Shown: positions 39,183 to 64,000, numbered from the stretch's first letter. The stretch is 64,000 bases of DNA from Elusimicrobiota bacterium (GCA_022709755.1 JAKLIF010000003.1:29171-93170), one strand, 5' to 3'. Made by a program: numbers and translations. The notes: generated by a model from the letters alone, not told the origin.

Positions 39183-39202
39183 GAATAAAGTCCTCCAAAA
39201 GA

Positions 39203-41939: not shown

Positions 41940-42921
41940 ACGACTGGGCCGGAGAGCCCGGCGCATCCTGGTCACCGGTGGAGCCGGTTTCTTGGGGTCC
42001 CATCTGTGCGACGCTCTCATCAGCCGGGGTCATTCCGTCATCTGTGTGGATAATTTTCTGACGGGGAAACCGGACAACATCGCTCATTTGATGGGCCATC
42101 CCCGTTTCGAGTTCATCCGCCATAACGTCACCCACGATCTGTTCATCCACGGTCCCCTTCACGCCATCATGCATTTCGCCAGCCCGGCCTCTCCCGTCGA
42201 TTACCTGAATTATCCGATCGAAACGCTGAAAGTGGGGGCGTTGGGGACCCATAAGATGCTCGGCCTGGCTCGGGCCAAGGGGGCTGTTTTTTTTCTGGCA
42301 TCCACTTCGGAAGTCTACGGCGATCCGCAGGTCCATCCGCAGCGGGAGGACTATTGGGGACACGTCAATCCGGTGGGCCCCCGCGGCGTCTACGACGAGG
42401 CCAAGCGGTTCGGCGAAGCCCTTTGTATGGCGTATCACAAGGTCCATCGGATCCCGGTGAGATTGGTTCGGATCTTCAACGTCTACGGTCCCCGCATGCA
42501 ATTGCGCGACGGCCGGGCGGTGCCGGCTTTCATCTCGGCGGCGCTCAACCGGAAACCCTTCCCGGTCTTCGGGAACGGACGGCAGACCCGCTCTTTCTGC
42601 TATATCGACGACATGGTGGACGGATTGCTCCGTCTCCTTTTTTCCGACTACAACGGTCCGGTGAACATCGGCAATCCTCAGGAGATCAGCGTCTTGAAGA
42701 TGGCCCAGACCATCAAGCGCCTGACGAAGAGCCGGTGTCCGATCGTCCATAAGGGGTTGCCCGTCGACGACCCCAAGGTCCGTCAGCCGGATATCACTTT
42801 GGCCAAACGATTGTTAGGTTGGAGCCCTCGGGTATCGCTGGAGGACGGTCTGAGCCGGACGATCCGCTGGTTTCGTGAGGAACGATACGAAAAGCGGGAG
42901 AGAACCCATGAAAAAAAATAG
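41932..42921 (+). CDS. UDP-glucuronate decarboxylase (UDP-xylose synthase-like extended SDR)
   Basis: [21 protein letters not shown] and the typical UXS/ArnA C-terminal region. Overlaps the upstream stop by 8 nt. Confidence 0.85.
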
Positions 42922-44899
42922 ATTCATCACTTTGATGATCGCCGTGTCCTGGTCGCTGCTCGTGACGATCCTGTTCCTCCGGGGGTCGTTCCAGGGGCTG
43001 GAGAACAAGACCGTTGATTCCCGTTTCGCCCTCCGAGGACAACGCGCGCCGGACCCGCGGGTCGTGATCATCACGGTGGATGAAAAATCCATCGCCGAGA
43101 TGGGCCGTTGGCCTTGGCCCCGACACATCCACGCCCAGTTGATCGAACTCCTGACGAAGGCCGGCGCCACGTCCATCGCGTTCGATATGCTATCGACGGA
43201 AGTGGACAAGGAACATCCGGATTCAGACCAGCGTTTCGCGCAGGCGGCCCAGCAGAGCGGCCGGGTCACGGTCGGGATGTTGTTCCAGCTCGGTGAAGGC
43301 GGAGCGGCCACAGCGCCGTTGTTTCCCTACGAAGCCTTGGCTCAAAAGGCGTCTCTCATGGGTTTCGTCAATAATTTCCCGGAAGCCGACGGGGTCAGCC
43401 GGAAAGTGCCGCTCTACGCCGTCTACAACGATCGGCTCTACCCCTCCCTGTCGTGCGCGGCGCTGGCTGTTCATGAAGGCAAAACGCCGGAAGACCTCCT
43501 GGAGAGACTGAACCTGCCTCTGGAGGGGATCTGGAACGAGATGACCGTCAACTATGTGGGCGGGTTCCAGTCGTTCCCTTATTTTTCCTTCGTGGATGTG
43601 CTGAACGGGAAGGTCACCCCGGACACGTTCAAGGACAAGATCGTCCTGATCGGCGGAACAGCCACGGCGCTGTTTGATTTCCGGGCGGTCCCCAATGTCC
43701 CCGTTTTTCCGGGGCTGGAGATCCACGCCAACGCCATCGACAACTATCTCAACAAAAACCACCTCCGTCATTCCACCTTGCTCCTCGGCGTGCTCCTCAT
43801 CCTGGTCTTCGGCATCAGCTGCGGGCTCATCATGTTCCGCTTGCCGGCCTGGATCGGGGCGGTCTCCATCGGGGCCTGGATGACGGGCTTTTTCTTCTTC
43901 TGTCAGTGGATCTTCGTCAGGACCAACGTGGTCATCGACTTCGTGGGGCCGACGGTCTCCCTGTTGGGATGCTATGTCTTCGTCCTGTTCTACCGGTTCA
44001 TCACCGAGGAACGAGAGAAGCGGTGGATCAAGGGGACGTTCTCCCAATATCTGTCGCCGAAGGTCATCGAGGTCATCACCTCGGATCCCAGCCGGCTTCG
44101 CCTGGGCGGCGAGGAACGCATCATGACCGTGTTTTTCTCCGATCTGGCCGGGTTCACCTCCATCTCGGAAGCCCTCAAGCCGCCGGAACTCGTGGCCGTG
44201 CTGAACGAATATCTCACGGCCATGAGCGAGATCATCTTGAAATACGACGGGGTGGTGGATAAATACATCGGCGACGCCATCATGGCGTTCTGGAACGCTC
44301 CCCTCGACGAACCGCGACACGCCAGTCTGGCCTGCTTCTCCGCGCTGGAGAACATCCAGCAGTTGAAGATCCTTCAAAAGAAGTTCCAACAGCAGGGGTT
44401 GCCGTTGATCGACTGCCGAATCGGGTTGAACACCGGGAACATGGTCGTCGGAAACATGGGATCCAAAAACCGGTTCGACTACACGGTCATGGGGGATTCC
44501 GTCAACCTGGGGTCCCGCCTCGAAGGGGCCAATAAACCGTTCCATACCCGCATCATGGTGTCGGATTTCACATATCAGCAGGCGAAGAACGACGTCGAGG
44601 TCCGCGAACTGGACCTCCTTCGGGTGAAGGGGAAAGCGGTGCCGATCCGCGTCTATGAGTTGGTGGCCCGAAAAGGGGAACTCACCGATACCCAGCGCAA
44701 GGGGTTCGATCTGTATGCCGAAGGGTTGCAATTTTACCGTGACAGGAAATTCTCGAAGGCCGTCGAAAAATTCAAGAAGGTGTATGAGTCCATCCCCGAC
44801 GACGGCCCCTCCGCCGTCTATATCTCTCGCAGCGAAGGATATATCGCCACGCCGCCTCCTCCGGAATGGGACGGCGTCTACGTGATGACCACGAAGTAA
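42908..44899 (+). CDS. CHASE2 sensor domain / class III adenylate-guanylate cyclase
   Basis: N-terminal TM, periplasmic CHASE2, three TM helices, then a cyclase homology domain with [19 protein letters not shown] and [14 protein letters not shown]. Confidence 0.85.
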
Positions 44900-49351: not shown

Positions 49352-51562
49352 ATGCTGAGTCACATACGGATCAGTTTGTTCATGAAAGTGGCCCTCCTCA
49401 TGGTGGGCTTGGCCACGGTGCCGTTGATGATCGTGGGGACTCAGATCCTCAGTCTGAATAAAGACTCACTCCAATACGAAGTTCTGAGATATCATACCCG
49501 CCTGGCCCAGTCGCTGGCTGAAAAATGGGACGGCCACCTGGCCGTCCTTGAAGAGAAGATCCGGTTCATCATGTCCACGTTCCAATCCAGCGAGATCAGT
49601 TGGCCCGAACGCCAATCGATCCTGCAGTCACTCGTGGATTCCAGCCCGTCGTTCGCCGTGGTATCCATCGTGGGGCAGGACGGTAAGGAATATATGAAGG
49701 TGTATAACCCAATCCTGGAACCGGAGTTGGCCGCATTCCCGTCCTTGGCTTCCCACAGCGAAGAGCCGTTGTTCCAGGATTTCCTCAAATCAAAGCACCG
49801 GGTCATGGAAGTGATCCGGGACAGTGACAATCCCCGCCTGCACCTCTACTACCCCCTTGAAACGCCGACGGGCCGTCACGCGATCTACATCGACACGTCC
49901 CTGCGGGCGTTCTGGGACGAGATCCTGAACACGCGCATCGGACAGACGGGGTTCGCCTATCTGGTCGGGGTGGAAGGGAGCCTCCTGGCCCATCCGGACC
50001 GGAACATGATGGAGGAGCCCCATTCCGTCAGGACCATTCCCCTGGTGGCCGCCGCGTTGGCGGGGAATTCCGGTGCTTCCGAGTTCTCGGATGCGAAGAA
50101 CGTCCAGTGGATCGGCGCCTCGGCCCCGATCCGCCGGATGCAGGGCGCCATCATCACCCAACAACAGCGCAACGAGGCTTACGCCGCCTCGCGGAAGGGC
50201 CAACGCCATGCTCTGTTCTGGATCGTGCTTTCCGCCTTTCTCGCGTCACTCATCGCGGCCCTCTTTGCCCGTCAGATCACCCGCCCCGTGCTGGATTTGA
50301 CCCGCGCCGCCCAGGACGTGAAGGTCGACGTGGGACAGTTCCCTGACGAAGTCGAGGTGCGCACGCACGACGAACTCCAGGACCTGAGCGAGACCTTCAA
50401 CACGATGACCAAAGAGCTGAAATCCTACGCGGCCATGCAGTTGGAACACCTCTTGGCGGAAAAGACCAAGACGGAGGCCATCGTCTTTTCGATTGTCGAC
50501 GGGCTCATCATGACCGATCACCAGGGGCTCATCGAGTTCATCAATCATCGGGCGCGCCAGATCCTGGGGATCACGGCTGAATACCAATCCTTGTTGAAAA
50601 AACCCCTGTGGGATTTCATCCCGCATACGGAAGCGCTCGACGTGCTGTGGGATATCACCCAAAATCCCCAAGACAACACGGCGCGCGAGATCGATCTCTC
50701 GGAGACGGGATATCGGCGGGTTTTCAAGGTGTTCTCCGAAGTGGTCCGCACCCCGACCCGCGGAGAAGACATCGGCGTCGTCATCATCCTCCACGATGTG
50801 ACGCTGGAGAAGGAGATCGAACAGATGAAGGAGGATTTCCTCCATTCCATCACCCATGACCTCCGCAATCCCATGACATCCATCCGGGGATTCCTCAAGT
50901 TCCTCCTGGACGAACTCGGGGGCCCTCTGACGGAACAACAGCGGAAGATGCTCGATACCATGGACCGCGCCAGCCTGCGGCTCCTCGGGATGATCAACGA
51001 CATCCTCGATGTGGCCAAGCTCGAAGCCGGGAAGATGGAAGTCAACCTCGCCGAAACAGATTTGATCGAACTTTCCCAGCGCATCCTTGAACTCCTGCAG
51101 GCCCAGGCCGGGAAGAAGAACATCGAACTGGTCCTGGATGCCAATCCGCAGATGCCCAAATCCATCCTCGATCCGCTCCTCATGGAGCGCCTTCTGACGA
51201 ACTTGGTGGGGAACTCCATCAAGTTTACGCCGGAAAAAGGTCGCATCACGATCGAGTGGCGGGATACGCCGACACAGATCCAGGGGGCCGTCTGCGATAC
51301 GGGAGAAGGGATGCCGCCCGATTTTATGGACAAGATATTCGGGAAGTTCCAGCAAGTGCGCGGCCAGCGCAAGGGAGGCACCGGGCTGGGATTGACCATC
51401 TGTAAATATATCGTCGAGAGTCATAAAGGGACCATCGGCGTGGAATCGACCCTCGGTAAGGGGTCCCGCTTTTATTTCACCATCCCCAAGGGTCTTCAAC
51501 GGGCGGAATCCGGAGAGGTTTATGTCACCAACAGTCCAGCGATATCACAGCAGACCGTCTAG
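49352..51562 (+). CDS. sensor histidine kinase: periplasmic Cache-like domain, HAMP, PAS, HisKA, HATPase_c
   Basis: Two TM helices flank a ~260-aa periplasmic domain. HAMP region. H-box HSITHDLRNP. N/G boxes LVGNSIKF...DTGEGMP...GTGLGLTICK. Confidence 0.85.
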   Translation: MLSHIRISLFMKVALLMVGLATVPLMIVGTQILSLNKDSLQYEVLRYHTRLAQSLAEKWDGHLAVLEEKIRFIMSTFQSSEISWPERQSILQSLVDSSPSFAVVSIVGQDGKEYMKVYNPILEPELAAFPSLASHSEEPLFQDFLKSKHRVMEVIRDSDNPRLHLYYPLETPTGRHAIYIDTSLRAFWDEILNTRIGQTGFAYLVGVEGSLLAHPDRNMMEEPHSVRTIPLVAAALAGNSGASEFSDAKNVQWIGASAPIRRMQGAIITQQQRNEAYAASRKGQRHALFWIVLSAFLASLIAALFARQITRPVLDLTRAAQDVKVDVGQFPDEVEVRTHDELQDLSETFNTMTKELKSYAAMQLEHLLAEKTKTEAIVFSIVDGLIMTDHQGLIEFINHRARQILGITAEYQSLLKKPLWDFIPHTEALDVLWDITQNPQDNTAREIDLSETGYRRVFKVFSEVVRTPTRGEDIGVVIILHDVTLEKEIEQMKEDFLHSITHDLRNPMTSIRGFLKFLLDELGGPLTEQQRKMLDTMDRASLRLLGMINDILDVAKLEAGKMEVNLAETDLIELSQRILELLQAQAGKKNIELVLDANPQMPKSILDPLLMERLLTNLVGNSIKFTPEKGRITIEWRDTPTQIQGAVCDTGEGMPPDFMDKIFGKFQQVRGQRKGGTGLGLTICKYIVESHKGTIGVESTLGKGSRFYFTIPKGLQRAESGEVYVTNSPAISQQTV

Positions 51563-55467: not shown

Positions 55468-55496
55468 TTGACAAAATGGGGTTCGGACCCTATACT
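55468..55496 (+). promoter_or_regulatory. sigma70-type promoter: TTGACA - 17 nt - TATACT
   Basis: Exact -35 hexamer at 55468-55473 and -10 hexamer at 55491-55496, with 17-nt spacing, 40 nt after the yfhO-like stop. Predicted TSS ~55503. Confidence 0.55.
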
Positions 55497-55504
55497 TGGA
55501 GTGA

Positions 55505-55630
55505 CGATAAGGGCAACCCTCGGTGAAAGCTGGGGGGCGCAAAGCTACGGGGCTAAAGAGAGGTCATTCTATATCCAAAGTGAAAGCTTTGGATACCTTC
55601 CGCGAGGGAGGGCTGGCCGAGCTGCCGAAT
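55505..55630 (+). ncRNA. c-di-GMP-I (GEMM) riboswitch-like aptamer, copy 1 (divergent, extended P3)
   Basis: AAGGGCAACCC - hairpin with GAAA tetraloop (CCUCGGU GAAA GCUGGGG) - GGGCGCAAAGCUACGGGGCUAAAG ... GGCUGGCCGAGCUGCCGAA. This matches the GEMM-I order GGCAAACC / GNRA-capped P2 / GACGCAAAGCC-ACGGG / P3 / ...GCCGA. One A is missing from the GGCAAAC box. Confidence 0.5.
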
Positions 55631-55688
55631 TATGACGAGAGCAGTTGCTCGTGCGTTCGTGCAGCCGTGGGACTCGATCCCATGTTTT

Positions 55689-55724
55689 AGCCGCGTTTGC
55701 TCAGTGCAAATGGCGGCTTTTTTA
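55689..55724 (+). terminator. intrinsic terminator (expression platform of riboswitch 1): AGCCGCGTTTGC-tcagt-GCAAAtgGCGGCT + TTTTTT
   Basis: ~11-bp GC-rich stem with a 5-nt loop, immediately followed by a T6 run. Read directly from the sequence. Confidence 0.6.
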
Positions 55725-55791
55725 TTCAGTCTGAAACATTGATCTTTTGATTCGCTCGACAAATCTCCTTTAACCGGGAGGCCTTTCCAAG

Positions 55792-55886
55792 AGTTCGGAA
55801 AGGGGCAAACCCGTCGCAAGACGGGGACGCAAAGCCACGGGCCCAGGAACCGCTGAATGGTTTTGGGGCAGCCGGGTTGCCGAAGA
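55792..55886 (+). ncRNA. c-di-GMP-I (GEMM) riboswitch aptamer, copy 2
   Basis: GUUCGGAAAGGGGCAAACC CGUC-GCAA-GACG GGGACGCAAAGCCACGGGCCC...GGGGCAGCCGGGUUGCCGAAG. It has the GGCAAACC box, a GNRA-capped P2, the GACGCAAAGCC-ACGGG core and the 3' GCAGCCGGGUUGCCGA element, nearly identical to the V. cholerae Vc2 consensus. P1 is UUCGG/CCGAA. Downstream leader ends in a U8 tract (56027-56035) just before the GGAGAGG SD of the first cluster gene. Confidence 0.7.
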
Positions 55887-56049: not shown

Positions 56050-56463
56050 ATGAACCAAAAACGGCTTCAAACGATGGCAGTCGCGGCGGGGATCCTGGGA
56101 TGGATCCTTTGCGTGACGCCTGTTTGTCAGCCGGGCCACAGCATCGCCATCCAATCCCTCGAAAACCTGACCAATTACCCCAACCCGTTCGATTCCCGTT
56201 CCGCCGTCACCGTGATCGCCTATACGCTGCCTTCTGAAGCCAGCGTCAAGATCGTCATTTTCGATTTGGGCGGCAATGAGATCCGCCGTTGGGACATCTC
56301 CGCCGGGACGGAGGGATCTCGGCAAGGTTCGAACAGATGGACATGGGATGGAACGGATGAATCGGGGAGCAAAGTTGCGGCGGGGGGGTATGTGTGCCGC
56401 GTGATGGTGGAAGAGGGATACGGTTTCTCTTCCGGAGTCCGGAAGATCGGAGTGATCCGGTAA
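56050..56463 (+). CDS. small secreted protein with FlgD-Ig-like / T9SS C-terminal-domain-like beta-sandwich
   Basis: Signal peptide MNQKRLQTMAVAAGILGWILCVTPVCQ. YPNPFDSRSAVTVIAYTLPSEASVKIVIFDLGGNEIRRW...WTWDGTDESGSKVAAGGYVCRVMVE follows the NPF...I.Y.L......I.D..G..V......G....W.G.D..G..V..G.Y pattern of FlgD Ig-like/Por_Secre_tail domains. GGAGAGG SD. Confidence 0.6.
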   Translation: MNQKRLQTMAVAAGILGWILCVTPVCQPGHSIAIQSLENLTNYPNPFDSRSAVTVIAYTLPSEASVKIVIFDLGGNEIRRWDISAGTEGSRQGSNRWTWDGTDESGSKVAAGGYVCRVMVEEGYGFSSGVRKIGVIR

Positions 56464-56475
56464 CGGAGAACGGCC

Positions 56476-58119
56476 ATGAGACAAGGACTGACCTCATCGA
56501 GCTTCTTCGGAAACCAGGCCCGGCGGCGGTTCGCCGGCCGGCTGGTGTCGGTCCTTCTTGCGGCTCTCCAGGTGGTCTCTCTGTTCCCGATGTCGGCGTC
56601 GGCTCAGGCCAAAGGAGGCGCTCCGGGACAATTCCTCTCGTGGGGAACCGGCGCCCGCAGCATGGGGATGGGAAAGGCCTTCTCCGCCATCGCCGACGAC
56701 GCCACTTCCGTTTATTGGAACCCGGCCGCGATGGTTCAGGCCGAACGGAAAGAGTTGTCCGCCATGCACGTGACCCTTTTCAAAGACACCGCCTACGATT
56801 CCATCAGCTATGTCCACCCGACTTCCAGAGCCGGCACGCTCGGCCTTAATTTCACCCGTCTCTTGTCCTCCGGATTCGAGAAGATCGGGATCAGCATCGA
56901 CCCCAAATCGCAGGAGATCGTCAAGTTGGAGAAGCTCGGCACTTTCGACGACCTTCAACAGGCCTACACGCTGGCTTACGGAAAACAGTTCACGGAAAAG
57001 ATGTCCATCGGCGTGTCCGTCAAACAGATCAGCCATCAGATGGATACGTTCAAACAGGGGTTCGTGGCCGTCGATGCGGCGTTCTTCGGGCGTGAATTTT
57101 TCCCCCATCACCGGATCGCGCTGGTGGGGCAGAACATCGTTTCCCAGGTCTCCGGACAGACGGACGATCAACTGCCGTTGACGGTACGCGTCGGGAACGC
57201 CTATTCCTTGCTGAGGGACCGCATCAACCTGGGGCTGGATATCACGCAGAACAGTTTTTCCGGGTTGGGCTACAATTTCGGGGCCGAATATTGGGTCCTG
57301 CGGTGGGCGGCGCTGAGGCTCGGGATCGAGGCGCATAGCGAAGGAATCGCGGAGACGAGCGTCGGGTTGGGGTTGAAACATCGGAACTATAGCCTGGATG
57401 TCGCCATGGCGATCCATGAACTGGGGATGTCCCAGCGGGTCTCGGCGTCCTGGCGTTTCGGCCGCTCGGTCAAGTCCAGCCAGAGAGAAGAAACCCAGAG
57501 CCTCATCGAACAGGGTCACGAGATGTTCCGGCAGGGCAATTATCTGCAGGCCATCCAGAAATTCAGCGCGGCGTTGGACGTGAACCCGTCCAATAAAGAG
57601 GTCCAGGCCATGGTGGCCAAATTGCAGGATATCGTCTCCGATCTTCCGAAGGCGCCGTCCGGCGACGTGGGCCGGTTGGTGGCTTCCGGCGTCAAGGCGT
57701 ATATGGACGGCGATCTGAACGGCGCGTATGACAGCTTCCGGGCCGCCTTCGATAAGGAGCCGGAGAACGGCCAGTTGATGAATCTGACCAACCGTCTGGC
57801 GAAACAGACCAATCGGCCGATGGTGGAACGGCCCAAGGGCGCCAGCGCGGCCGCCCGATGGACGCTGGTGGACCAGAAGCTGCATGACGCCCTGCAGGCC
57901 ATCTACGAAGGCCGCTATGACGTGGCCATCCAGAAATGCGACGAGGTCCTGCGCATCGAGCCCACGAACGTGGTGGCGATCGGCCGGATGGGCGCGGCGT
58001 TCTTCCTCCTGGGAGAACGGGACAAGGCGGTGGCTCTCTGGAAGCGGGCCCTGGAACTGGATCCGACCCATCGCCCGGCCATCGAATACCTGCAGCAACT
58101 GGGTGAATACAAACGATGA
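56476..58119 (+). CDS. FadL/PorV-like outer-membrane beta-barrel fused to C-terminal TPR repeats
   Basis: Signal peptide ending ...SASAQA. Hatch motif GARSMGMGKAFSAIADDATSVYWNPAAM, the same A-x-AMG-x-AF-x-A-x-ADD-x-S-x-x-x-NPA motif as the FadL at 7806-9065. ~300-aa beta-rich barrel, then ~200 aa of TPR (ALDVNPSNKE..., ALELDPTHRPAIEYL). Confidence 0.65.
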   Translation: MRQGLTSSSFFGNQARRRFAGRLVSVLLAALQVVSLFPMSASAQAKGGAPGQFLSWGTGARSMGMGKAFSAIADDATSVYWNPAAMVQAERKELSAMHVTLFKDTAYDSISYVHPTSRAGTLGLNFTRLLSSGFEKIGISIDPKSQEIVKLEKLGTFDDLQQAYTLAYGKQFTEKMSIGVSVKQISHQMDTFKQGFVAVDAAFFGREFFPHHRIALVGQNIVSQVSGQTDDQLPLTVRVGNAYSLLRDRINLGLDITQNSFSGLGYNFGAEYWVLRWAALRLGIEAHSEGIAETSVGLGLKHRNYSLDVAMAIHELGMSQRVSASWRFGRSVKSSQREETQSLIEQGHEMFRQGNYLQAIQKFSAALDVNPSNKEVQAMVAKLQDIVSDLPKAPSGDVGRLVASGVKAYMDGDLNGAYDSFRAAFDKEPENGQLMNLTNRLAKQTNRPMVERPKGASAAARWTLVDQKLHDALQAIYEGRYDVAIQKCDEVLRIEPTNVVAIGRMGAAFFLLGERDKAVALWKRALELDPTHRPAIEYLQQLGEYKR

Positions 58120-60047
58120 TCTCCGCCCCCTATTATAGAGTAGGTAACTACATGGGGCCCCGCCCCCGGTTCTTGGGTCGCGCGGTCTTCGTTGTGGTGG
58201 CGGCGTTGGTCTGTTCCGGGATTCTGACGGAGACGGGTTTCACCGTCGGCGCCGCCGCCCCGGACCCGGTCATCATCGAACAGGAGAACCTCATCCGCCG
58301 CGAAGCGGAGGAAAAGATCCAGCGGGACATCTTGGACCGCATCCTCGGAGAGGGGCGGGCCAGCGTGCTGGTGAACGTCGAGGTCAGTCTCGAGAGCGAA
58401 AAACGGGAGTCAGGCACGGCGGAAGGGAAAGTGGACGACCGCAAAGGATTGGGCGATCAGGACTACATCCTGCCGTGGGTTCCGGCCCAGAAGTCGGTCA
58501 GCAAGAACAATGAGGTCCCCAAGGACGCCAAGGTGGAATCCGCTTCGGGAGAGATAGCGACCTCCGCGATCCGTCAGGTCGTGCGCCGTTTCGACGTGAC
58601 CGTGATCCACGATGAATCCATGGGCAAACCGCAGATGGAGCTGGTGGATGCGGCCATCCGTTCCGCTTATTCGCGTTACGAGAAGGTCATGAGCGTTATC
58701 TATAAGGCGACCCGGTTTGCCAAATATGAGATGAAGGTCAAGATCAGGGAGGGTTTCTGGGATTTTCTGAAACCCCAGTATCTGTTGCCCGGTCTCATCG
58801 CCCTCCTCCTGTTGTTCTTCCTGTTCGGTCCGGTGTGGCAGTTCCTTCGGGCGGTGTTGAAGGCCATGACGGCCCGCCGTGGAGCGGACATGTTCAGTGA
58901 TTCCAACACACGGCTTGAATCGAAGGGGGAGAACGAGGATAAGGACAAGGATAAAGACGGAAAGAATGGGGAAGGGGAAGAGGCCGATGCTCTGGCGGCC
59001 CTTCAGAAGAAGATGCAGGAGGAGAAATACATCCCCTTCCTCTATGTCGACGATAAGAACCTGAAACGGCTGATCTACCTCATCCGGAAAGAGCCGCCGG
59101 AAGTCATCGCCGTCATCGTGTCTTACCTGAAGCCGGAGTTCGTCAAGGAGATATTGAATTCGCTGGTGCCGGAGTTACAGGCCAAAGTGGCCATGCATAT
59201 GGCCGCGGTGAAACAGATGACGCAGGCGGAGATCCGTTCGTTGGATATGGAGATCAAGGAGAAGATCGATTTTCTCGTGGGGGGTCTCCATTCGTTGTTG
59301 AAGGTCCTCGATGAGGTGAATTCCACCAGCCGTGACAACATCTTGGAATATCTCAAGAACGAACGTCCGAGACTCTATGAGAAGGTGCGGCATTATATCC
59401 TGATGTTCGACGACATCATCAACTTTCCGGACCAGGCCATGCAGATCATCGTCCGTGAGTTAAGGACGGAGAATCTGGCCAAGGCCCTTCAGGGGGCCAG
59501 CCCGGACATCACGAACAAGGTCTTCAACAACATGTCGAAAGGGGCCATGGCTCTTCTCAAGGAGGAGATGGAGTTCAGCCGGGCCTTGACGCCGGATCAG
59601 ATCACGGACGAACGTCAGAAGATATTGAACACCGTCAAGAGCCTTGAATTGGCCGGGAAGATATCGATCCGGGAGAAATTGCCGGATGATTTCCTGGAGT
59701 GGGAGGACATGGAGGTCCTGTCCAACACCGGACAATGGCTCGCCGGCCGTTCTTCGTCGGAACCGGCCGCCTCCCCGGCCGCCAACCCCGAATATTTCAC
59801 GGCAGGAATACAACTCTATCAGGCGGGACAGTATTCGGAAGCACTGCCATATCTTCAGTACGCGGATCAGCTGGACCCCCGGTCCGAGGAGACGAAACAG
59901 TATCTGGGGCACTGCTATTACGCGTTGGGTCAGTACGGCGCCGCGTTGGCGACGTATGAGACGTTGTCAGCGATGAAACCAGGGGATGCGGCTTTGAAAC
60001 AGTGGGTGGAACAGTTCCGCGCGAGCATCTCTCTCCCGACGACATAA
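58116..60047 (+). CDS. chimeric FliF(C-terminal ring-building/TM part)-FliG(middle + C-terminal domains) membrane protein with C-terminal TPR
   Basis: Residues ~50-260 align with the FliF RBM3 and C-terminal TM region: NLIRREAEEKIQRDILDRILGEGRASVLVNVEVSLE versus FliF NDVESRIQRRIEAILSPIVGNGNVHAQVTAQLD, then TM LLPGLIALLLLFFLFGPVWQF. Residues ~300-520 are FliG-like. EPPEVIAVIVSYLKPEFVKEILNSLVPELQAKVAMHMAAV matches the FliG-M EHPQ region. ILMFDDIINFPDQAMQIIVREL...GASPDITNKVFNNMSKGAMALLKEEM...RQKILNTVKSLELAGKISI matches the FliG-C MFxF and charged-helix region. C-terminus is TPR-like (AGIQLYQAGQYSEALPYLQYA...). ATGA overlap with the upstream stop. Confidence 0.7.
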   Translation: MISAPYYRVGNYMGPRPRFLGRAVFVVVAALVCSGILTETGFTVGAAAPDPVIIEQENLIRREAEEKIQRDILDRILGEGRASVLVNVEVSLESEKRESGTAEGKVDDRKGLGDQDYILPWVPAQKSVSKNNEVPKDAKVESASGEIATSAIRQVVRRFDVTVIHDESMGKPQMELVDAAIRSAYSRYEKVMSVIYKATRFAKYEMKVKIREGFWDFLKPQYLLPGLIALLLLFFLFGPVWQFLRAVLKAMTARRGADMFSDSNTRLESKGENEDKDKDKDGKNGEGEEADALAALQKKMQEEKYIPFLYVDDKNLKRLIYLIRKEPPEVIAVIVSYLKPEFVKEILNSLVPELQAKVAMHMAAVKQMTQAEIRSLDMEIKEKIDFLVGGLHSLLKVLDEVNSTSRDNILEYLKNERPRLYEKVRHYILMFDDIINFPDQAMQIIVRELRTENLAKALQGASPDITNKVFNNMSKGAMALLKEEMEFSRALTPDQITDERQKILNTVKSLELAGKISIREKLPDDFLEWEDMEVLSNTGQWLAGRSSSEPAASPAANPEYFTAGIQLYQAGQYSEALPYLQYADQLDPRSEETKQYLGHCYYALGQYGAALATYETLSAMKPGDAALKQWVEQFRASISLPTT

Positions 60048-60052
60048 AAACG

Positions 60053-63000
60053 ATGAACGATAAACTCAAATCTCTGTTCGGCCGAAAAAAAGGGGATCCG
60101 TCCACGGATTCCCGGAACCTTCCTGTTCCGTCGGAACCGGCGCGACCCCCGATGGTCCCTCCTCGGGAGGAAGCCGGATCGTCCGATCAGGCGGCTGATT
60201 CTCTTTTTCAGAAACAGGAGCTTGAACGCGCGGCGGCCACGGCCGAACTTCAGGAGGCCGAGACGGCCGCCGCGGTGAGGCAACAGGCCTTCAACGAAGA
60301 GATGAAGACATTCCATGAGGATATTGAGGCCACCTTGCGCGCGTGGGAGGAACATGCCCTGGTCTCGAAGAAACGATGGACCGAACTGATCGAAAAAAAG
60401 ATGTCGGAGATGAAACAAGAGTCGGAGAAAGCCCTGGAACTCGAATCCCTGCTGAAATATCACAGGGAATCGTCATCCAAGTCCGCCGTCCTCCAGGAGC
60501 AGATGGAGCAGGAGAAAAGACAGTCCCTTGAAAAACAGATGCGGGGCGAGAGGGCCCGGTGGGAACAGCGGCTGGAGGACCAGAAACAGAAGATCGGTTC
60601 TCTCCGCCAGAAGATCGAGGTATTGAGAGGTCAGAAGGTCCTCGAGGAGGAGGCGCACCGCAAGGAGATCGAGACGTTGAAGGCGCAGTTCTCCAGCGAG
60701 ACGTTGCGTCGTCAACGGGAATGGGAACTCATCAAGGGACAATTGGAGAGGACGTTACAAGAGAAAGCCAAAGCCCTGCGGGAGATGAAGCTCAGGACCG
60801 AAGAATTCAAGATGTCGATCGACATGGAGTTGAAGAATCAGGAGGACGAGAAACAGCGGCTGATCTCCACGTCCCAGGAACGGCTCCAGACCCTCGGCCT
60901 CCGGAAACAAAACGAACAGATGAAGTTTGAATCGGTTCTGAAGACCCTCGCGGAGACCCATCAGAAATCGATCGCGGAGTTGGAGATGATCCAGGCCCAG
61001 TCCAAGGCCGAAAAAGAAATCCACCAGAAGGAATATCGGGATCTGGTGGCCAAGGCCCAACAGGATCTTCAGGAATTGGAACATCGTCTCCAGCGCGAGG
61101 AGGGTTCTTTCCGCCAGGTTATCGACGATAAAAATCGGGAAGCGCAGTCCCTGCAAGAACAGCTTGAGCAGATCGAGAAGTCGTCCCAATCGGGATGGAA
61201 AGACGTTCAGTCCCGGCTGGAGCAGGATCGTCTCCAACTGGCCGCCCAGATCCGGTCGCAGGAAGAGGCGTTGCAGAACCTCCTGAAAGAGCAGGAGGAG
61301 AAGTTGAACCGCCAGAAGGCCGATTATGCGGCGCTCCAACAGGCCTGGAGCCAGCGGTTGAAGGAAGAACAGTCCCAGCACGCCCAACTCATCCAAACAT
61401 TGCAGGAGCAGAGGAGAGGGTTGGAGATGAAACAGGCGGAGTTGGAGAAGTCTTTGAACGGGCAGCGCGAAGAGTGGAAAAAACAGATCGTTGAGACGGA
61501 ACGCGCCGTCGCGGAAGCGCAGACTCAATTGTCTCAGAAACAATCCGAGGTTAAGAGGACTCTGCAACGGTTGGAGTGGGACCATCAGGAGGCGGCCCGT
61601 CCGTTGGTGGCGAAAAAGACCGAGATCGAGAGGCGGTTGCAGTCCCTCCAGACCGATTTTCAAAAGGCCATGGAGGACAAGGAACGATGGGTCCAGTCGT
61701 ACGTGGACCAGATGAACCGCCGGGAGGAGGCGGCCAAACGGTTGTACGATGAGCAGAAGAACGCGGCCCAACGGGAACTCGAAAAACTGTCCAAGGCGGA
61801 GGCGGAGGCGTCGGTCCGTTGGAGGGTGGAAGAGCAGAAGATGAGGGAATCCCTCGATCTAAAGAACGTGGAGCTGGGACGTCTCCAGGGGGAACTGTCC
61901 GCGAAGGTGGATCAGGGCCAGGTTGAACAGTCTCAAATGAAGCAACGGTTCGAAGAGGAGTTGCTCCGGCTTCGGGAAGAAGTTAAAGCTGTTTCGGATC
62001 ATGTCGACAAACAGAGACAGGAGAATCAACGGATCTTATCGGAGAAGGATCAAGATATCTCGGCGCTGAAGATCCGCTTGAAAGAACAGGCCCAGCGCCT
62101 CGAAGAGGAGGGGCGTCTCCTCTCCGTCTCTTTCGAAGAAGAACGTTGCCGGTTGCAGAAATCGTTGGAAGAGGAGGAGGTCCGTCGTCAGAAGATCCAA
62201 GAGGGTTGGAATCTCGAGAAAGATTCCCTGATCAATCGTCAAAGGGAACTGGAGAAACAGATCGAAGACGCATCGGTCCTTCATCGTCGGGAGATGGAAG
62301 CGCTCGCCGCGGATCGGGCCAGGGTGCGTCAGCCGCTCTCCCAACAGAAAGCCGATCTGGAGATCCAACTGGAAACCCTGCTGAAGGACCGGGAGGGCGC
62401 GCTTCAGGCCTTGGAGTCGGAAAAGCAGAATCTTGAATATCAACTTCAACAGAAACAGGAGTCGGTGGGGAATATCCGGGAGCGGCATCATCAGGATGTC
62501 GCGAACCTGAAAGACCAGTTTCGGGAACGTTTTGCGCGGATGAGGGAGGAGTGGACCGCGCTGGAAAACCGGCATGCGACGGCGTTGCAGGATCTGGAGC
62601 GCCAGATCCTGAACGTTCAGAAACAGTTTGCGGAAACGAAATCGGAGTTGGATCAGGAAAAAGATAATTTCCTCCAGGTCTCTCATCGGGAGAAGGCGGC
62701 CTTGCTCGACAGTCTCGCGGAATTGGATCGGAAGATCGGTTCCTTCAAGGAAGAGTGGCCCCGGCAACGCCAGGAAAAAATGGATTATCTCGATCAGATT
62801 CAGAAGAAGGTCGCGCTCCTCCAGCGTCAGTTGGATGAACAGGAGAAGGAGTCGGTCCGCGCTCTGGATCAACGGCGCCAGCGGTTCCTGAAACGGGAAT
62901 CGAAAGTCCGGCAGGTGATCGGTTCTCGGACCGAGAAACAGAAACAGGAACTGAATAAGAGTCAGTCTCTCCTCCAATCTCTTCAGAAGGAGACGGCCGG

Positions 63001-64000
63001 ACAGGAACAGTCGTTGCGGAACCAGTTGACCGAAACGGAAAAAGCATACGCGGCCGAGAGGGACCGGTTGGGACAGCAGAAGAAGGAACTGCAGTCCCGA
63101 TGGGAGATCCTCGAGAAGGAACGAGCCGAGGAATTATCGAAATTGAGCGGCGAGATCCAGCGTTTGGAGACCCAATACGCCACTCAGCAATCCCAATGGG
63201 ACAGGCAGCTCCAAAAACAGAGGGAAAACGAGGCCTCGGAGATCGAATCCTTCCATGTCCGGATCCGGGAGATCCTGGAACGGCAGAAGAAGGACGAGGC
63301 GGCGGCGGACGCGGTCATCCAACGGGCGGAGGCGGATCGGGCAAAACTGCAGAAGGAATATGAGGACCGCCGCTGGGCATTGGAATCCCAGATCATCGAA
63401 AAACGGAAACAATGGACACCCCTTTTGGAGAAGATGAAGGAGGAGGTCCGGAGCCTATCGGAGAAAGAGACGGATCTCCTCCAGCGCTTCACGACGGAAA
63501 AAGAGCATCGCGTCAAGAAACTGGCCGATCTTCAGAACCAGCTCCAGAACTGGAACGAGAAGATGCAGGCGGAGAAGAAGGAACATGAGATACGGCATGA
63601 GGATAAGATCGCTTCCCTGCAGGAGCAGATCGATAAGAACACCCAACTGTTGGTCAAGACAAAGAAAGAATTGGACGTGCGGGTGCAGTCGAATCAGGAG
63701 GAGTTGCAGAAAGTCACCACGGATTTGCAGGAACGGGAACGTCAGATCATGGCGCAGATCGACAAAGAGGAGGCGGACTGGAAAGAGGGGCTGACCGCCG
63801 TTGAGGAAGAGGCGCAGCAACTGAAGTCCCGGCTCCAGTCGACAGAGTCCGCCCACCGGGAGACGGTCGGCGGATTGGAAGTGCGCATCAGTCAGATTCA
63901 GATGGAGCTGACCCTGAAGGAGACGCAGCGGGAGTCGGACAAGGCCCGTTTCGAGAGGGAATCGGCCAAGGTCCGCCGTCCTCTGGAACAGAAGTTGAAG
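60053..64000 (+). CDS. giant coiled-coil protein (>1315 aa, 3'-truncated by window end)
   Basis: ATG 5 nt after the FliF/FliG-like stop. The frame is open to the last base of the window. Translation is E/Q/K/R/L-rich with heptad periodicity throughout (e.g. LQEQLEQIEKSSQSGWKDVQSRLEQDRLQLAAQIRSQEEALQNLLKEQEEKL). It is absent from the ORF track only because it has no stop in the window. All minus-strand ORFs in 60.7-63.9 kb are its shadows. Confidence 0.6.
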   Translation, partial: MNDKLKSLFGRKKGDPSTDSRNLPVPSEPARPPMVPPREEAGSSDQAADSLFQKQELERAAATAELQEAETAAAVRQQAFNEEMKTFHEDIEATLRAWEEHALVSKKRWTELIEKKMSEMKQESEKALELESLLKYHRESSSKSAVLQEQMEQEKRQSLEKQMRGERARWEQRLEDQKQKIGSLRQKIEVLRGQKVLEEEAHRKEIETLKAQFSSETLRRQREWELIKGQLERTLQEKAKALREMKLRTEEFKMSIDMELKNQEDEKQRLISTSQERLQTLGLRKQNEQMKFESVLKTLAETHQKSIAELEMIQAQSKAEKEIHQKEYRDLVAKAQQDLQELEHRLQREEGSFRQVIDDKNREAQSLQEQLEQIEKSSQSGWKDVQSRLEQDRLQLAAQIRSQEEALQNLLKEQEEKLNRQKADYAALQQAWSQRLKEEQSQHAQLIQTLQEQRRGLEMKQAELEKSLNGQREEWKKQIVETERAVAEAQTQLSQKQSEVKRTLQRLEWDHQEAARPLVAKKTEIERRLQSLQTDFQKAMEDKERWVQSYVDQMNRREEAAKRLYDEQKNAAQRELEKLSKAEAEASVRWRVEEQKMRESLDLKNVELGRLQGELSAKVDQGQVEQSQMKQRFEEELLRLREEVKAVSDHVDKQRQENQRILSEKDQDISALKIRLKEQAQRLEEEGRLLSVSFEEERCRLQKSLEEEEVRRQKIQEGWNLEKDSLINRQRELEKQIEDASVLHRREMEALAADRARVRQPLSQQKADLEIQLETLLKDREGALQALESEKQNLEYQLQQKQESVGNIRERHHQDVANLKDQFRERFARMREEWTALENRHATALQDLERQILNVQKQFAETKSELDQEKDNFLQVSHREKAALLDSLAELDRKIGSFKEEWPRQRQEKMDYLDQIQKKVALLQRQLDEQEKESVRALDQRRQRFLKRESKVRQVIGSRTEKQKQELNKSQSLLQSLQKETAGQEQSLRNQLTETEKAYAAERDRLGQQKKELQSRWEILEKERAEELSKLSGEIQRLETQYATQQSQWDRQLQKQRENEASEIESFHVRIREILERQKKDEAAADAVIQRAEADRAKLQKEYEDRRWALESQIIEKRKQWTPLLEKMKEEVRSLSEKETDLLQRFTTEKEHRVKKLADLQNQLQNWNEKMQAEKKEHEIRHEDKIASLQEQIDKNTQLLVKTKKELDVRVQSNQEELQKVTTDLQERERQIMAQIDKEEADWKEGLTAVEEEAQQLKSRLQSTESAHRETVGGLEVRISQIQMELTLKETQRESDKARFERESAKVRRPLEQKLK

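What the first reader, a model, noticed from the sequence alone, without database searches (positions are those of the whole stretch)
60053..64000. Unterminated >1300-aa coiled-coil ORF hidden from the ORF track
The largest coding feature of the window is invisible in the six-frame track because it has no stop within the window. It is continuous heptad-repeat sequence with no recognisable enzymatic motif (no Walker A, so not SMC-like). Position and coupling (5 nt after the FliF/FliG-like gene) suggest it is the structural, filament- or tether-like element of the cluster.
Basis: seen in the sequence. Interest (0 to 1): 0.55.

Follow-up and report, generated by a model that had tools for sequence, protein, structure and literature searches.

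The report
Giant 61-residue-repeat rod beside FliG-like rotor
The open frame is a real 1,599-residue gene of an uncultured Elusimicrobiota bacterium that encodes a roughly 200-nm helical rod built from 23 exact 61-residue repeats, and it sits in a c-di-GMP-riboswitch-controlled operon built around a flagellar-rotor-like protein in a phylum that has no flagella.

Summary
Window 60053-64000 (+) is open for 1,316 codons. On the parent contig the gene ends at 1,599 aa, and an independent metagenome carries the identical gene.

The protein is coiled-coil-like but not a plain heptad coil. Residues 49-1451 are 23 uninterrupted 61-residue repeats with 17 core positions each (3.59 residues per turn). 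They follow a disordered N-terminus and precede a C-terminal TPR module that lies beyond the window. All 17 orthologues keep the 61-residue period at 15-26% identity. Their length varies only by tandem 244-residue (4-repeat) blocks.

At sequence level the family is nearly orphan: 4 hits among 1.84 billion representative proteins.

The gene is fourth in an operon conserved across Elusimicrobiota:
- c-di-GMP-I riboswitch(es)
- a T9SS-CTD-like protein
- a PorV-like barrel with TPR
- a FliF(RBM)-FliG(MC)-TPR fusion
- coiled-coil proteins
- MotAB plus a lipoprotein, in 48 of 79 related loci but not in this window

Best reading: it is a length-quantised cytoplasmic scaffold or tether of a non-flagellar FliG/MotAB-type envelope machine. 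The gene and its architecture are shown. The attachment and the function are inferred.

The parts
60053..64000 (+). Giant repeat-rod gene, first 1,316 of 1,599 codons. The gene continues to what would be window 64852 on the parent contig.
   Evidence: Open frame. Full gene on L001 11938-16737. Identical in an independent sample. Positional orthologues in 15 genomes.
60053..60196 (+). N-terminal non-repeat part, residues 1-48: a short basic motif (MNDKLKSLFGRKKG) followed by a Pro-rich segment predicted to be disordered.
   Evidence: Sequence. AF2 pLDDT below 50 and no secondary structure for residues 1-52. Conserved 'MxxFxKxK' start in the A2 consensus.
60197..64000 (+). 61-residue repeats 1-20 and part of repeat 21, out of 23 (residues 49-1451). 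They are in phase without any indel. W or F occupies repeat position 61 at W109, W170, F292, F353, W475, F536, W719, W902, F1146 (and F1329, W1451 beyond the window).
   Evidence: BLOSUM autocorrelation peaks only at multiples of 61. Stacked repeats. Pooled profile of about 420 repeats. No DNA-level tandem repeat, and repeats are 13% identical to each other.
58116..60047 (+). Upstream gene (643 aa): TM - FliF-like ring-building periplasmic domain - TM - FliG_M - FliG_C - TPR.
   Evidence: Pfam FliG_C 3.9e-26 and FliG_M 1e-12. AF2 model with alpha-beta-beta-alpha-beta periplasmic domain. Foldseek hits to FliG (1lkv), stator-bound FliG_C (8ucs_H, TM 0.94) and FliF rings (7bk0_B, 8t8p_A). Torque-helix columns.
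56476..58119 (+). PorV/PorQ-family outer-membrane barrel fused to TPR repeats (547 aa, with signal peptide).
   Evidence: NCBIfam NF033709 PorV_fam at 115.7 bits against a cut-off of 90. Pfam UPF0164 and TPR. NCBI names it a PorV/PorQ family protein, HOW27472.1.
56050..56463 (+). 137-aa secreted protein made only of a signal peptide and a T9SS-CTD-like / FlgD_ig domain (NYPNPFD...WDG...GGY).
   Evidence: Pfam FlgD_ig 7.3e-11. Best NCBIfam matches are the C-termini of PorU and PorZ; TIGR04183 scores 19.6 against a cut-off of 23. Sequence.
55795..55885 (+). c-di-GMP-I-type riboswitch aptamer B (GGC-variant model).
   Evidence: Rfam RF03167 at 70.1 bits against a gathering score of 59. Own model R1 at 86.6 bits.
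55502..55629 (+). c-di-GMP-I riboswitch aptamer A.
   Evidence: Rfam RF01051 at 51.7 bits against a gathering score of 35. R1 at 68.4 bits.
55694..55722 (+). Terminator-like hairpin plus T-run between the two aptamers, a candidate expression platform for aptamer A.
   Evidence: Consensus scan. Sequence read.
55468..55496 (+). Sigma-70-like promoter TTGACA-17-TATACT, 6 nt before aptamer A.
   Evidence: 11 of 12 consensus matches; 0.3 such sites expected in shuffles.

Best explanation
The ORF is a genuine gene for a cytoplasmic, rod-shaped structural protein of an uncultured Elusimicrobiota bacterium.

Architecture (shown):
- a short basic N-terminal peptide and a linker of about 40 disordered residues;
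- 23 uninterrupted 61-residue repeats, each with 17 hydrophobic core positions (four heptads plus three hendecads, 3.59 residues per turn) and an aromatic residue at position 61;
- a short non-periodic helical stretch;
- a C-terminal TPR module paralogous to the TPR that ends the upstream FliF-FliG fusion protein.

If fully extended, the periodic part would be about 208 nm long, at 9.06 nm per repeat.

Context (shown): it is gene 4 of a six-gene operon behind tandem c-di-GMP-I riboswitches. The core of that operon is conserved across Elusimicrobiota: riboswitch, CTD-type ligand, PorV-like barrel with TPR, FliF(RBM)-FliG(MC)-TPR, coiled-coil proteins, and in most lineages MotA-MotB-lipoprotein.

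Mechanism (inferred): the FliF-FliG fusion forms an inner-membrane ring that stator units can act on. The PorV-like barrel and its CTD partner form the outer-membrane end. The giant rod is the cytoplasmic scaffold or tether of this machine. It would dock through its TPR, or through the conserved C-terminal peptide of the next coiled-coil protein. Its strictly periodic, length-quantised lattice (steps of 4 repeats, 36 nm) would set distance or spacing.

c-di-GMP decides whether the whole set is transcribed. The direction of that switch was not determined.
For: Gene reality:
- Open frame and a full 1,599-aa call on the contig.
- An identical copy in an independent sample.

Repeat architecture:
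- The top self-similarity shifts are exclusively multiples of 61 in the window protein and in all 17 orthologues. A(61) = 0.29 against a maximum of -0.096 in 200 shuffles.
- The stack is in phase from residue 49 to 1451.
- A profile pooled from about 420 repeats shows 17 core positions, with Y/W/F at position 61 in 49% of repeats.
- The repeats are old: 13% identical to each other, with no DNA-level tandem repeat.
- Orthologue lengths differ by exact 244-residue blocks that are tandem duplications, 55% identical in L030.
- AF2 predicts about 95% helix in long segments, at low confidence.

Cytoplasmic location: no signal peptide or TM segment.

TPR:
- Present in 12 of 15 orthologues.
- Closest to the TPR of the FliG-like protein, 31% over 77 aa; the FliG class scores best in 13 of 15 orthologues.

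Linkage:
- The gene always lies immediately after the FliG-like gene, here with a 5-nt spacer.
- Riboswitch aptamers lie on the coding strand upstream in 59 of 79 loci, and in all 7 clade-A loci tested with Rfam.

Rotor and stator nature of the neighbours:
- Pfam and fold matches for the FliG-like protein.
- E483 is invariant and E484 is kept in 19 of 21 sequences; these align with E. coli D288/D289 (contact residues from PMC12505986).
- MotA_ExbB, MotB_plug and OmpA domains in the downstream genes of 48 of 79 loci.
Against: - No experiment or multimer model shows that the rod binds the rotor. Adjacency and a shared TPR type are indirect evidence.
- In the clade that has the giant rod, including this window, no motA or motB lies within 10 kb. 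A working stator for this particular operon is therefore not shown.
- The equivalent of FliG R281 is G or N throughout the family.
- The oligomeric state and orientation of the rod are unknown: parallel, or a folded-back hairpin of about 104 nm. The AF2 model has a pLDDT of only 60.
- All isolates of the phylum are reported as non-motile (PMC11257099), so no phenotype is attached to the operon.
Confidence: 0.55

Rival explanations
1. It is an autonomous intermediate-filament-like cytoskeletal protein, comparable to Scy, FilP or crescentin. It would form filaments or a polar matrix for cell shape or polarity and would merely be co-transcribed with the FliG-like machine.
For: It has a very long rod with non-heptad, long-period repeats, as in Scy/FilP (PMC9858780). 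It has no enzymatic domains. It evolves fast while keeping its architecture.
Against: It is never seen apart from the FliG-like gene in the loci examined. Its TPR is paralogous to the TPR of the FliG-like protein. There is no DivIVA-like N-terminal domain. The cores are Leu/Ile/aromatic rather than Ala-rich.
Confidence: 0.2
2. It is a rack or track. The 9-nm periodic lattice would be engaged by the rotating FliG-like ring or by stator units, so that rotation is converted into linear displacement. This would be a cytoplasmic analogue of the rack-and-pinion idea proposed for Bacteroidota gliding.
For: The period is exact and free of indels over 1,403 residues, and is conserved at 15-26% identity. 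Length changes only in 4-repeat units. The repeat carries a conserved surface-charged K7-[ED]8-x-E10 motif. Rotor and stator homologues lie in the same operon family.
Against: This reading is purely inferential. No motor-binding motif has been identified, stator genes are not linked in the clade that has the giant rod, and no motility is reported for the phylum.
Confidence: 0.12
3. It is an exported surface fibril or adhesin, like an M protein or flagellin, secreted through the FliF/FliG-associated apparatus or the PorV-like barrel.
For: The operon contains outer-membrane and secretion-type parts (PorV-like barrel, CTD-like protein). The N-terminus is disordered, as in flagellar export substrates.
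Against: There is no signal peptide and no T9SS-type CTD on this protein. No FlhA/FlhB/FliPQR/FliI genes occur in any locus, and flagellar machinery is reported absent from the phylum. Its TPR is paralogous to the TPR that follows the cytoplasmic FliG_C domain of the neighbour.
Confidence: 0.05
4. It is an SMC/Rad50-like chromosome-organising protein, or a non-coding or misassembled low-complexity stretch.
For: The neighbouring coiled-coil proteins give weak sub-threshold SMC coiled-coil matches. The composition is strongly biased: E, Q, L, R and K make up 57% of residues.
Against: There is no Walker A/B motif or head or hinge domain. An identical ORF occurs in an independent assembly. The frame, period and TPR are conserved in 17 orthologues.
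Confidence: 0.02

Closest known systems
Scy and FilP of Streptomyces (DivIVA-like, intermediate-filament-like coiled-coil proteins)
   Same: These are bacterial cytoplasmic scaffold proteins with very long rods (Scy over 1,000 residues). Their hydrophobic periodicity departs from heptads through hendecads arranged in a long-period repeat (PMC9858780; the 51-residue figure is from my memory of Walshaw et al. 2010, J Struct Biol 170:202). They act as organisers of a multiprotein assembly.
   Different: The repeat here is 61 residues (4 heptads plus 3 hendecads), not 51. The cores are Leu/Ile/aromatic, not Ala-rich. There is no DivIVA-like N-terminal domain, and there is a C-terminal TPR. The phylum and the genomic context (FliG-like operon) differ, and there is no detectable sequence homology.
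Flagellar MS-ring/C-ring rotor (FliF, FliG) with MotAB stators
   Same: The adjacent gene has a FliF-type ring-building periplasmic domain and FliG_M and FliG_C domains. It keeps the Gly-Gly linker and the acidic pair of the torque helix. MotA (with K..E at the R90/E98 positions) and MotB (with plug, Asp and OmpA domain) follow in 48 of 79 related loci.
   Different: FliF and FliG are fused in one polypeptide, FliG_N is missing and a TPR is appended. There is no FliM/FliN, export gate, rod, hook or filament gene. The phylum is described as lacking flagella (PMC11257099). No flagellar component resembles the 61-residue-repeat rod.
Myxococcus Agl-Glt gliding complex (AglZ coiled-coil protein, GltI TPR protein, AglRQS motor, outer-membrane barrels, CglB adhesin). 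This comparison rests on my own knowledge.
   Same: The logic is the same: a MotAB/TolQR-family motor, a cytoplasmic platform of coiled-coil and TPR proteins, periplasmic TPR parts, outer-membrane barrels and a surface protein.
   Different: No component is homologous apart from the motor superfamily. AglZ has a receiver domain, which is absent here. The rotor here is FliG-like. No motility is known for Elusimicrobiota.
T9SS PorV/PorQ barrels with CTD-bearing partners (PorU, PorZ, cargo) and Bacteroidota gliding
   Same: The operon pairs a PorV/PorQ-family barrel with a protein whose only domain resembles the CTDs of PorU and PorZ. In other clades that CTD ends a secreted protein of at least 2,500 aa.
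   Different: The barrel is fused to TPR repeats. No SprA, PorL/M/N/K or GldJ genes occur in the loci. The associated motor parts are FliG/MotAB-type rather than GldLM.
Periodic ruler or co-filament proteins such as tropomyosin and nebulin. This comparison rests on my own knowledge.
   Same: The period is exact and conserved over the whole molecule. Length changes occur in whole super-repeats, here 4 x 61 = 244 residues, about 36 nm.
   Different: These are eukaryotic and unrelated in sequence. No periodic partner filament is known here.

Membership tests
SMC/Rad50-type coiled-coil ATPases | N- and C-terminal ABC-type head with Walker A and Walker B motifs, plus a hinge | tested here: not met
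   No Walker A/B pattern. No Pfam or NCBIfam domain in the 1,316-aa or 1,599-aa protein other than the TPR.
Canonical heptad coiled coil | Continuous a/d hydrophobic pattern with a period of 3.5 residues | tested here: not met
   The a/d signal is strong (z = 18.8). However, the register changes every 25-40 residues, Fourier power is higher at 3.6 than at 3.5, and the repeat has 17 core positions per 61 residues, or 3.59.
Coiled-coil / alpha-helical rod proteins in general | Long amphipathic helices with 3-4 hydrophobic spacing and few Pro or Gly | tested here: met
   About 95% helix in AF2, in helices of 87-230 residues, at low confidence. 17 Pro and 37 Gly in 1,599 aa, mostly at the ends. 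Core pattern.
Scy/FilP (DivIVA-like IF-like proteins) | N-terminal DivIVA-like domain | tested here: not met
   No DivIVA Pfam hit in any of the 15 orthologues. The N-terminus is disordered and Pro-rich.
Scy/FilP (DivIVA-like IF-like proteins) | Long-period non-heptad repeat rich in hendecads, with Ala-rich cores | tested here: inconclusive
   A long-period non-heptad repeat is present, but it is 61 residues long with Leu/Ile/aromatic cores. Ala is never a leading residue at core positions.
TPR-domain proteins | Tandem 34-residue helix-turn-helix repeats matching TPR profiles | tested here: met
   Residues 1514-1590, beyond the window. Pfam TPR_16 is sub-threshold in this protein (20.7 bits), but TPR_2 or TPR_1 is hit in 12 of 15 orthologues down to 6.8e-8. 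PDB consensus-TPR hits at E = 1e-4. 31% identity to the TPR of the FliG-like protein.
FliG (for the neighbouring gene) | FliG_M and FliG_C domains with the Gly-Gly linker | tested here: met
   Pfam 48.5 and 91.9 bits, above cut-offs. 31-33% identity to T. maritima FliG_MC. G389 and G390 are invariant.
FliG (for the neighbouring gene) | Charged torque-helix residues that contact MotA (E. coli K264, R281, D288, D289, R297) | tested here: inconclusive
   The D288/D289 equivalents are kept (E483 in 21 of 21, E484 in 19 of 21). The R297 equivalent is R or K in 16 of 21. The K264 equivalent is R or K in 18 of 21 (Q in this protein). The R281 equivalent is G or N in all.
FliG (for the neighbouring gene) | FliG_N domain that binds the FliF C-terminus, as a separate polypeptide | tested here: not met
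   No FliG_N above cut-off (21.4 against 25, and placed over FliG_M). Instead there is a direct fusion to a TM-RBM-TM module. TIGR00207 scores 126.8 bits against a cut-off of 226.7.
Bacterial flagellum (for the operon) | Export gate, rod, hook and filament genes, FliM/FliN, and MotAB | tested here: not met
   None except MotAB occurs in any of 79 loci, and MotAB is absent from this window and contig stretch. The literature states that flagellar machinery is absent from the phylum, while orphan motAB and fliG have been noted.
PorV/PorQ family (for the gene two upstream) | Match to the NF033709 family model above its cut-off | tested here: met
   115.7 bits against a cut-off of 90.
T9SS type A C-terminal sorting domain (for the 137-aa protein) | Match to TIGR04183 above its cut-off | tested here: inconclusive
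   TIGR04183 scores 19.6 against 23. The best matches are the CTDs of PorU and PorZ. Pfam FlgD_ig scores 42.3 against 27.
c-di-GMP-I riboswitch (for the operon leader) | Covariance-model score above the Rfam gathering threshold | tested here: met
   RF01051 at 51.7 against 35 and RF03167 at 70.1 against 59 in the window. 14 further hits in 7 related loci. Ligand binding was not tested.
AglZ-type gliding scaffold | N-terminal receiver domain followed by a coiled coil | tested here: not met
   No Response_reg hit.

The most novel reading that the evidence does not exclude
The operon encodes a previously undescribed, non-flagellar rotary envelope machine, either descended from the flagellar rotor-stator module or a sister of it. 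Its parts would be an inner-membrane FliF-FliG fusion ring driven by MotAB, a PorV-like outer-membrane unit holding a CTD-anchored surface protein, and a c-di-GMP riboswitch as the master switch. In this machine the 61-residue-repeat protein would be a mechanically active, length-quantised element: a rack, driveshaft or spoke with a 9-nm pitch and 36-nm super-period that couples ring rotation to displacement or positioning. It would give a phylum regarded as non-motile and aflagellate a new kind of motor-driven process.
Probability: 0.15. Interest if true: 0.95.

Novelty: new variant of a known kind. Interest (0 to 1): 0.74.

Why it matters
There are three reasons.

First, the protein defines a new long-period coiled-coil repeat: 61 residues with 17 core positions. 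The repeat is kept exactly in phase for 1,400 residues and across orthologues that are only 15-26% identical, and length changes only in 4-repeat steps. That degree of geometric constraint normally marks a ruler, a lattice partner or a mechanical element, so the protein is a tractable object for coiled-coil structural biology.

Second, it points to a phylum-wide operon in Elusimicrobiota. The operon joins a natural FliF-FliG fusion and MotAB stators to a PorV/CTD outer-membrane pair under c-di-GMP riboswitch control, in a phylum described as lacking flagella and motility. Orphan fliG and motAB genes had been noticed there, with their role called unclear. The operon gives that puzzle a concrete, testable machine.

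Third, a FliF-FliG-MotAB module working without any type III export apparatus bears on how the flagellar motor evolved, either as a repurposed relic or as a rotor-stator unit that can exist independently.

Tried and rejected
- **Word-indexed homology search with the full 1,599-aa protein:** nothing at E <= 1e-5. The exact sequence is not in that collection, so I identified orthologues by synteny instead.
- **Exhaustive HMMER search with residues 1-1200:** only 4 hits. I conclude the family is nearly orphan in sequence.
- **Looking further downstream with the giant protein as anchor:** A look-up with window ORF 39053-40897 found no record.
- **MotA/MotB in the window and L001 by tblastn:** none.
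- **AF2 single-sequence model of residues 1-1200:** pLDDT 60. I used it only for helix content and break positions, and did not run a fold search on it because the matches would be meaningless.
- **dN/dS against the closest relative:** not possible, because the second contig is identical and the next orthologues are saturated at about 25% identity.
- **Tryptophan spacing as evidence for spectrin-like repeats:** dropped once the 61-residue period explained the W/F positions.
- **Recent DNA tandem duplication as the source of the period:** rejected (TRF finds none; repeats are 13% identical).
- **SMC-like, secreted-fibril and artefact readings:** rejected for the reasons given under rival explanations.
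- **Literature searches:** no description of this operon or of a 61-residue coiled-coil repeat. The library is incomplete, so prior description elsewhere cannot be excluded.
- **Cultured carrier of the operon:** a second homology search found only MAGs among named hits.

Full report
**1. Observation**

- Window 60053-64000 (+) is an unbroken frame of 1,316 codons.
- The mechanical ORF list does not show it, because it never meets a stop inside the window. The largest complete ORF in the window is 914 aa.
- The upstream gene stops with TAA at 60045-60047 and the ATG follows after 5 nt.
- The window lies on ENA metagenome contig ERZ761563 NODE_163 (104 kb). The fetched stretch L001 overlaps the window for 15,885 nt without a mismatch.
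- On that contig the gene is 1,599 codons long.
- A contig from a different sample (JGI 3300025706, L081) carries the same 4,800 nt with no difference, followed by the same two downstream genes. Assembly error or a hidden frameshift is therefore very unlikely.
- NCBI's copy of this genome, an Elusimicrobiota MAG, numbers the operon's proteins consecutively, HOW27473 down to HOW27468.

**2. What the protein is**

Composition and domains:
- E, Q, L, R and K make up 57% of residues. Pro and Gly are rare and sit mostly at the ends.
- There is no Walker A or B motif, no TM segment and no signal peptide.
- Pfam and NCBIfam find nothing in the window part.
- The a/d-type hydrophobic pattern is far above shuffled controls (z = 18.8). 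However, the best register changes every 25-40 residues, and Fourier power is higher at 3.6 than at 3.5 residues.

The repeat. The register shifts are explained by a strict long-period repeat:
- BLOSUM autocorrelation of the rod peaks only at 61, 122, 183, 244 ... 671 residues. This holds in the window protein and in every one of 17 orthologues. A(61) = 0.29 against a maximum of -0.096 in 200 shuffles.
- Stacked at period 61, the sequence stays in phase from residue 49 to 1451, giving 23 repeats with no indel. W or F closes about half of the repeats.
- Pooling about 420 repeats from all orthologues gives a sharp profile. Core positions are 4, 11, 14, 18, 25, (29), (32), 36, (39), 43, 47, 50, 54, (57) and 61.
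- That is 17 positions per 61 residues, or 3.59 per turn, equivalent to four heptads plus three hendecads. Position 61 is Y/W/F in 49% of repeats. The conserved motif is `[YWF]-x3-[LI]-x2-K-[ED]-x-E-[IL]-x2-L-K-x2-L`.
- An undistorted helix has 3.63 residues per turn (PMC9858780), so this rod should be only slightly supercoiled.
- Ala is not prominent at core positions, and a large aromatic sits at a 4-4 (stutter) position. By the reasoning in PMC9858780 this argues against a simple Scy-like two-stranded hendecad dimer and for a bundle of more helices. This is inference.

Age of the repeats:
- The repeats are on average 13% identical to each other, against 9% out of register. TRF finds no DNA tandem repeat.
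- The period is therefore maintained by selection on geometry, not by recent duplication.

The two ends:
- Residues 1-48 are a basic peptide plus a Pro-rich segment that AF2 leaves disordered. AF2 predicts about 95% helix for residues 53-1199, in segments of 87-230 residues, but at pLDDT 60.
- Residues about 1514-1590, beyond the window, are a TPR module. Hits are weak in this protein, but 12 of 15 orthologues are hit down to 6.8e-8, and PDB consensus-TPR hits reach 1e-4.

**3. Family and length**

- Sequence searches barely see the family. The word-indexed search found nothing.
- The exhaustive HMMER scan of 1.84 billion representatives found 4 proteins at E <= 1e-3, the best at 7.7e-9. Two are full length (1,605 and 1,854 aa) and both end in a TPR.
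- Synteny finds it easily. Anchoring on the FliG-like neighbour gave 119 species genomes, of which 79 loci were kept, almost all Elusimicrobiota.
- In one clade of 15 loci the gene after the FliG-like gene is 1,558-2,103 aa.
- Eleven of the 15 aligned proteins, the window protein and 10 of its 14 locus orthologues, are 1,558-1,650 aa. The longer ones differ by exact 244-residue blocks: +244 in L007, L023 and L030, and +488 in L011, at two different sites.
- These blocks are tandem duplications of four repeats. The copies are 55% identical in L030, 36% in L023 and 33% in P0129.
- Mean autocorrelation is also highest at 244.
- The approximately 583-604-aa genes in the same position in a second clade show the same 61/122/244 period. 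The next gene, the 'CC1036' family, does not (0 of 65).

**4. The operon**

Genes on the same strand, tightly spaced or overlapping:
- **56050-56463:** a 137-aa secreted protein consisting of a T9SS-CTD-like / FlgD_ig domain. Its best NCBIfam matches are the C-termini of PorU and PorZ.
- **56476-58119:** a PorV/PorQ-family barrel (115.7 bits against a cut-off of 90) fused to TPR repeats.
- **58116-60047:** TM, an alpha-beta-beta-alpha-beta periplasmic domain, TM, FliG_M, FliG_C, then TPR.
- **60053 onward:** the giant rod.
- **Then a 1,036-aa coiled-coil protein** with a Pro-rich N-terminus, a conserved block (residues 77-310) and a conserved C-terminal peptide.
- **Then a 543-aa coiled-coil protein** with a similar W-rich C-terminus.

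The FliG-like neighbour:
- Foldseek places the model on FliG_MC (1lkv, 32% identity) and on FliG_C bound to the MotAB stator (8ucs_H, TM 0.94). It matches FliF MS-ring chains more weakly (7bk0_B, 8t8p_A; E about 1e-3).
- The Gly-Gly linker is invariant.
- The acidic pair equivalent to E. coli D288/D289 is kept (E483 in 21 of 21, E484 in 19 of 21). The R281 equivalent is G or N. The contact residues are taken from PMC12505986.

The leader:
- A near-consensus promoter at 55468-55496.
- A c-di-GMP-I aptamer at 55502-55629.
- A terminator-like hairpin at 55694-55722.
- A second aptamer at 55795-55885.

Upstream genes (a histidine kinase, a LysM/FecR protein and a 768-aa membrane protein) are not conserved in other loci.

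**5. Conservation of the system**

- PorV-TPR is present in 73 of 79 loci and the FliG fusion in all 79. A CC1036-family gene is present in 65 of 79.
- MotA (MotA_ExbB, 1e-28), MotB (plug plus OmpA) and a 250-aa lipoprotein follow the coiled-coil genes in 48 of 79 loci.
- A covariance model built from the aptamers finds 70 aptamers in 59 of 79 loci plus the window. All are on the coding strand, just upstream of the CTD or PorV gene. Tandem pairs occur in 9 loci.

Two forms exist:
- **Clade A (this window):** a CTD-only protein of 122-190 aa, the giant repeat rod with TPR, a CC1036-like protein of 810-1,244 aa, often a third small coiled coil, and no MotAB within 10 kb.
- **Other clades:** a secreted protein of at least 2,500 aa ending in the CTD (encoded upstream of the riboswitch), a short coiled coil of 600-850 aa or 583 plus about 900 aa, and MotAB plus the lipoprotein.

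The rod's TPR is closest to the TPR of the FliG fusion: 31% over 77 aa, with the FliG class scoring best in 13 of 15 orthologues.

**6. Mechanism**

Shown:
- The gene, its repeat architecture and its cytoplasmic character.
- Its invariable position after the FliG-like gene.
- The riboswitch leader.
- The rotor-like, stator-like and PorV/CTD-like identities of the neighbours.

Inferred:
- The FliF-FliG fusion oligomerises into an inner-membrane ring acted on by MotAB-type units. In clade A those units must be encoded elsewhere. The literature reports numerous motAB homologues in free-living Elusimicrobiota.
- The PorV-TPR barrel with its CTD partner forms the outer-membrane end.
- The rod is the cytoplasmic scaffold or tether. 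It would dock by its TPR or through the CC1036 C-terminal peptide.
- Its exact 9.06-nm period and 36-nm duplication unit serve spacing, length-setting or engagement with a periodic partner.
- c-di-GMP gates transcription. The direction of the switch is undetermined.

I put 0.55 on the scaffold or tether reading. The rivals are an autonomous IF-like cytoskeleton (0.2), a rack or track (0.12), an exported fibril (0.05), and SMC-like or artefact (0.02).

**7. Comparison with the known, and novelty**

- The closest protein class is Scy/FilP: long rods with long-period non-heptad repeats. The N-terminal domain, repeat length, core chemistry, C-terminal domain, context and phylum all differ, and no homology is detectable.
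- The closest systems are the flagellar rotor and stator, the T9SS PorV-CTD pair, and, by logic only, the Myxococcus Agl-Glt complex.
- PMC11257099 states that flagellar machinery is absent from all Elusimicrobiota genomes and that all isolates are non-motile.
- A 2022 preprint (10.1101/2022.07.08.499144) noted orphan motAB and fliG homologues in the phylum and called the role of MotAB unclear.
- I found no description of the operon, its riboswitch, the FliF-FliG-TPR fusion or the 61-residue repeat in the searchable library. That library is incomplete.
- I rate the rod itself as a new variant of a known kind (periodic coiled-coil scaffolds). The surrounding machine may prove to be more than that.

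Noticed in passing
window 55468-55885: Near-consensus promoter, then two tandem c-di-GMP-I-type aptamers (RF01051, and the RF03167 'GGC' variant) with a terminator-like hairpin between them. The same arrangement, on the same strand and in the same position, occurs in 59 of 79 related Elusimicrobiota loci, as tandem pairs in 9. Ligand and ON/OFF logic were not determined.
   Followed up: yes
window 58116-60047: A natural single-polypeptide FliF(RBM)-FliG(M,C)-TPR fusion. It has at least 580 homologues across two searches, essentially all from Elusimicrobiota MAGs. The acidic pair of the torque helix is invariant or nearly so, but the R281 equivalent is always G or N.
   Followed up: yes
window 56050-58119: A protein made only of a signal peptide plus a T9SS-CTD-like domain (closest to the PorU and PorZ C-termini) sits next to a PorV/PorQ-family barrel fused to TPR repeats. 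The phylum is not known for T9SS.
   Followed up: partly
L004 69-7541; L008 57-7958; L050 3-7580 and about 30 other loci: In clades without the giant rod, the CTD-like domain ends a secreted protein of at least 2,500 aa (cut by the locus edge) with almost no recognisable domains. It is encoded upstream of the riboswitch. A giant outside protein goes with a short cytoplasmic coiled coil, and the reverse also holds.
   Followed up: partly
L050 14726-17104 and 47 other loci: MotA (KK..E at the R90/E98 positions), MotB (YADLMT Asp, plug, OmpA domain) and a conserved 250-aa lipoprotein with no family match directly follow the coiled-coil gene. None of them lies in the window or within 6 kb downstream of it.
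   Followed up: yes
L001 16758-19868 and 19873-21504 (downstream of the window): Two further coiled-coil proteins. The 1,036-aa one belongs to the most widely conserved coiled-coil family of the operon (65 of 79 loci). It has a Pro-rich N-terminus, a conserved block at residues 77-310, and a short conserved C-terminal peptide ('W/F-L-N/D-x-P-h-I-E-h' in two clades, 'RLKWAhKGKK' in the third). That peptide is a candidate TPR ligand. The 543-aa protein ends in a similar W-rich motif.
   Followed up: partly
window about 12000-14000 (ORF 12591-13898 +): A low-GC island (0.44 against about 0.60 for the rest of the window) encodes a STAND-type NTPase (nSTAND1, AAA_16). It may be horizontally acquired or defence-related.
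   Followed up: no
window 42875-44899 and 49352-51562: A CHASE2-adenylate/guanylate cyclase and a dCache-HAMP-PAS histidine kinase lie upstream of the operon. The kinase and the LysM/FecR and 768-aa membrane proteins between it and the riboswitch are not conserved in related loci.
   Followed up: partly
L017, L018 (record titles): Two loci that carry the operon are labelled Ignavibacteria or Omnitrophica in some sources, while the same contigs are labelled Endomicrobia elsewhere. This is probably mis-binning or mislabelling rather than a wider distribution.
   Followed up: no
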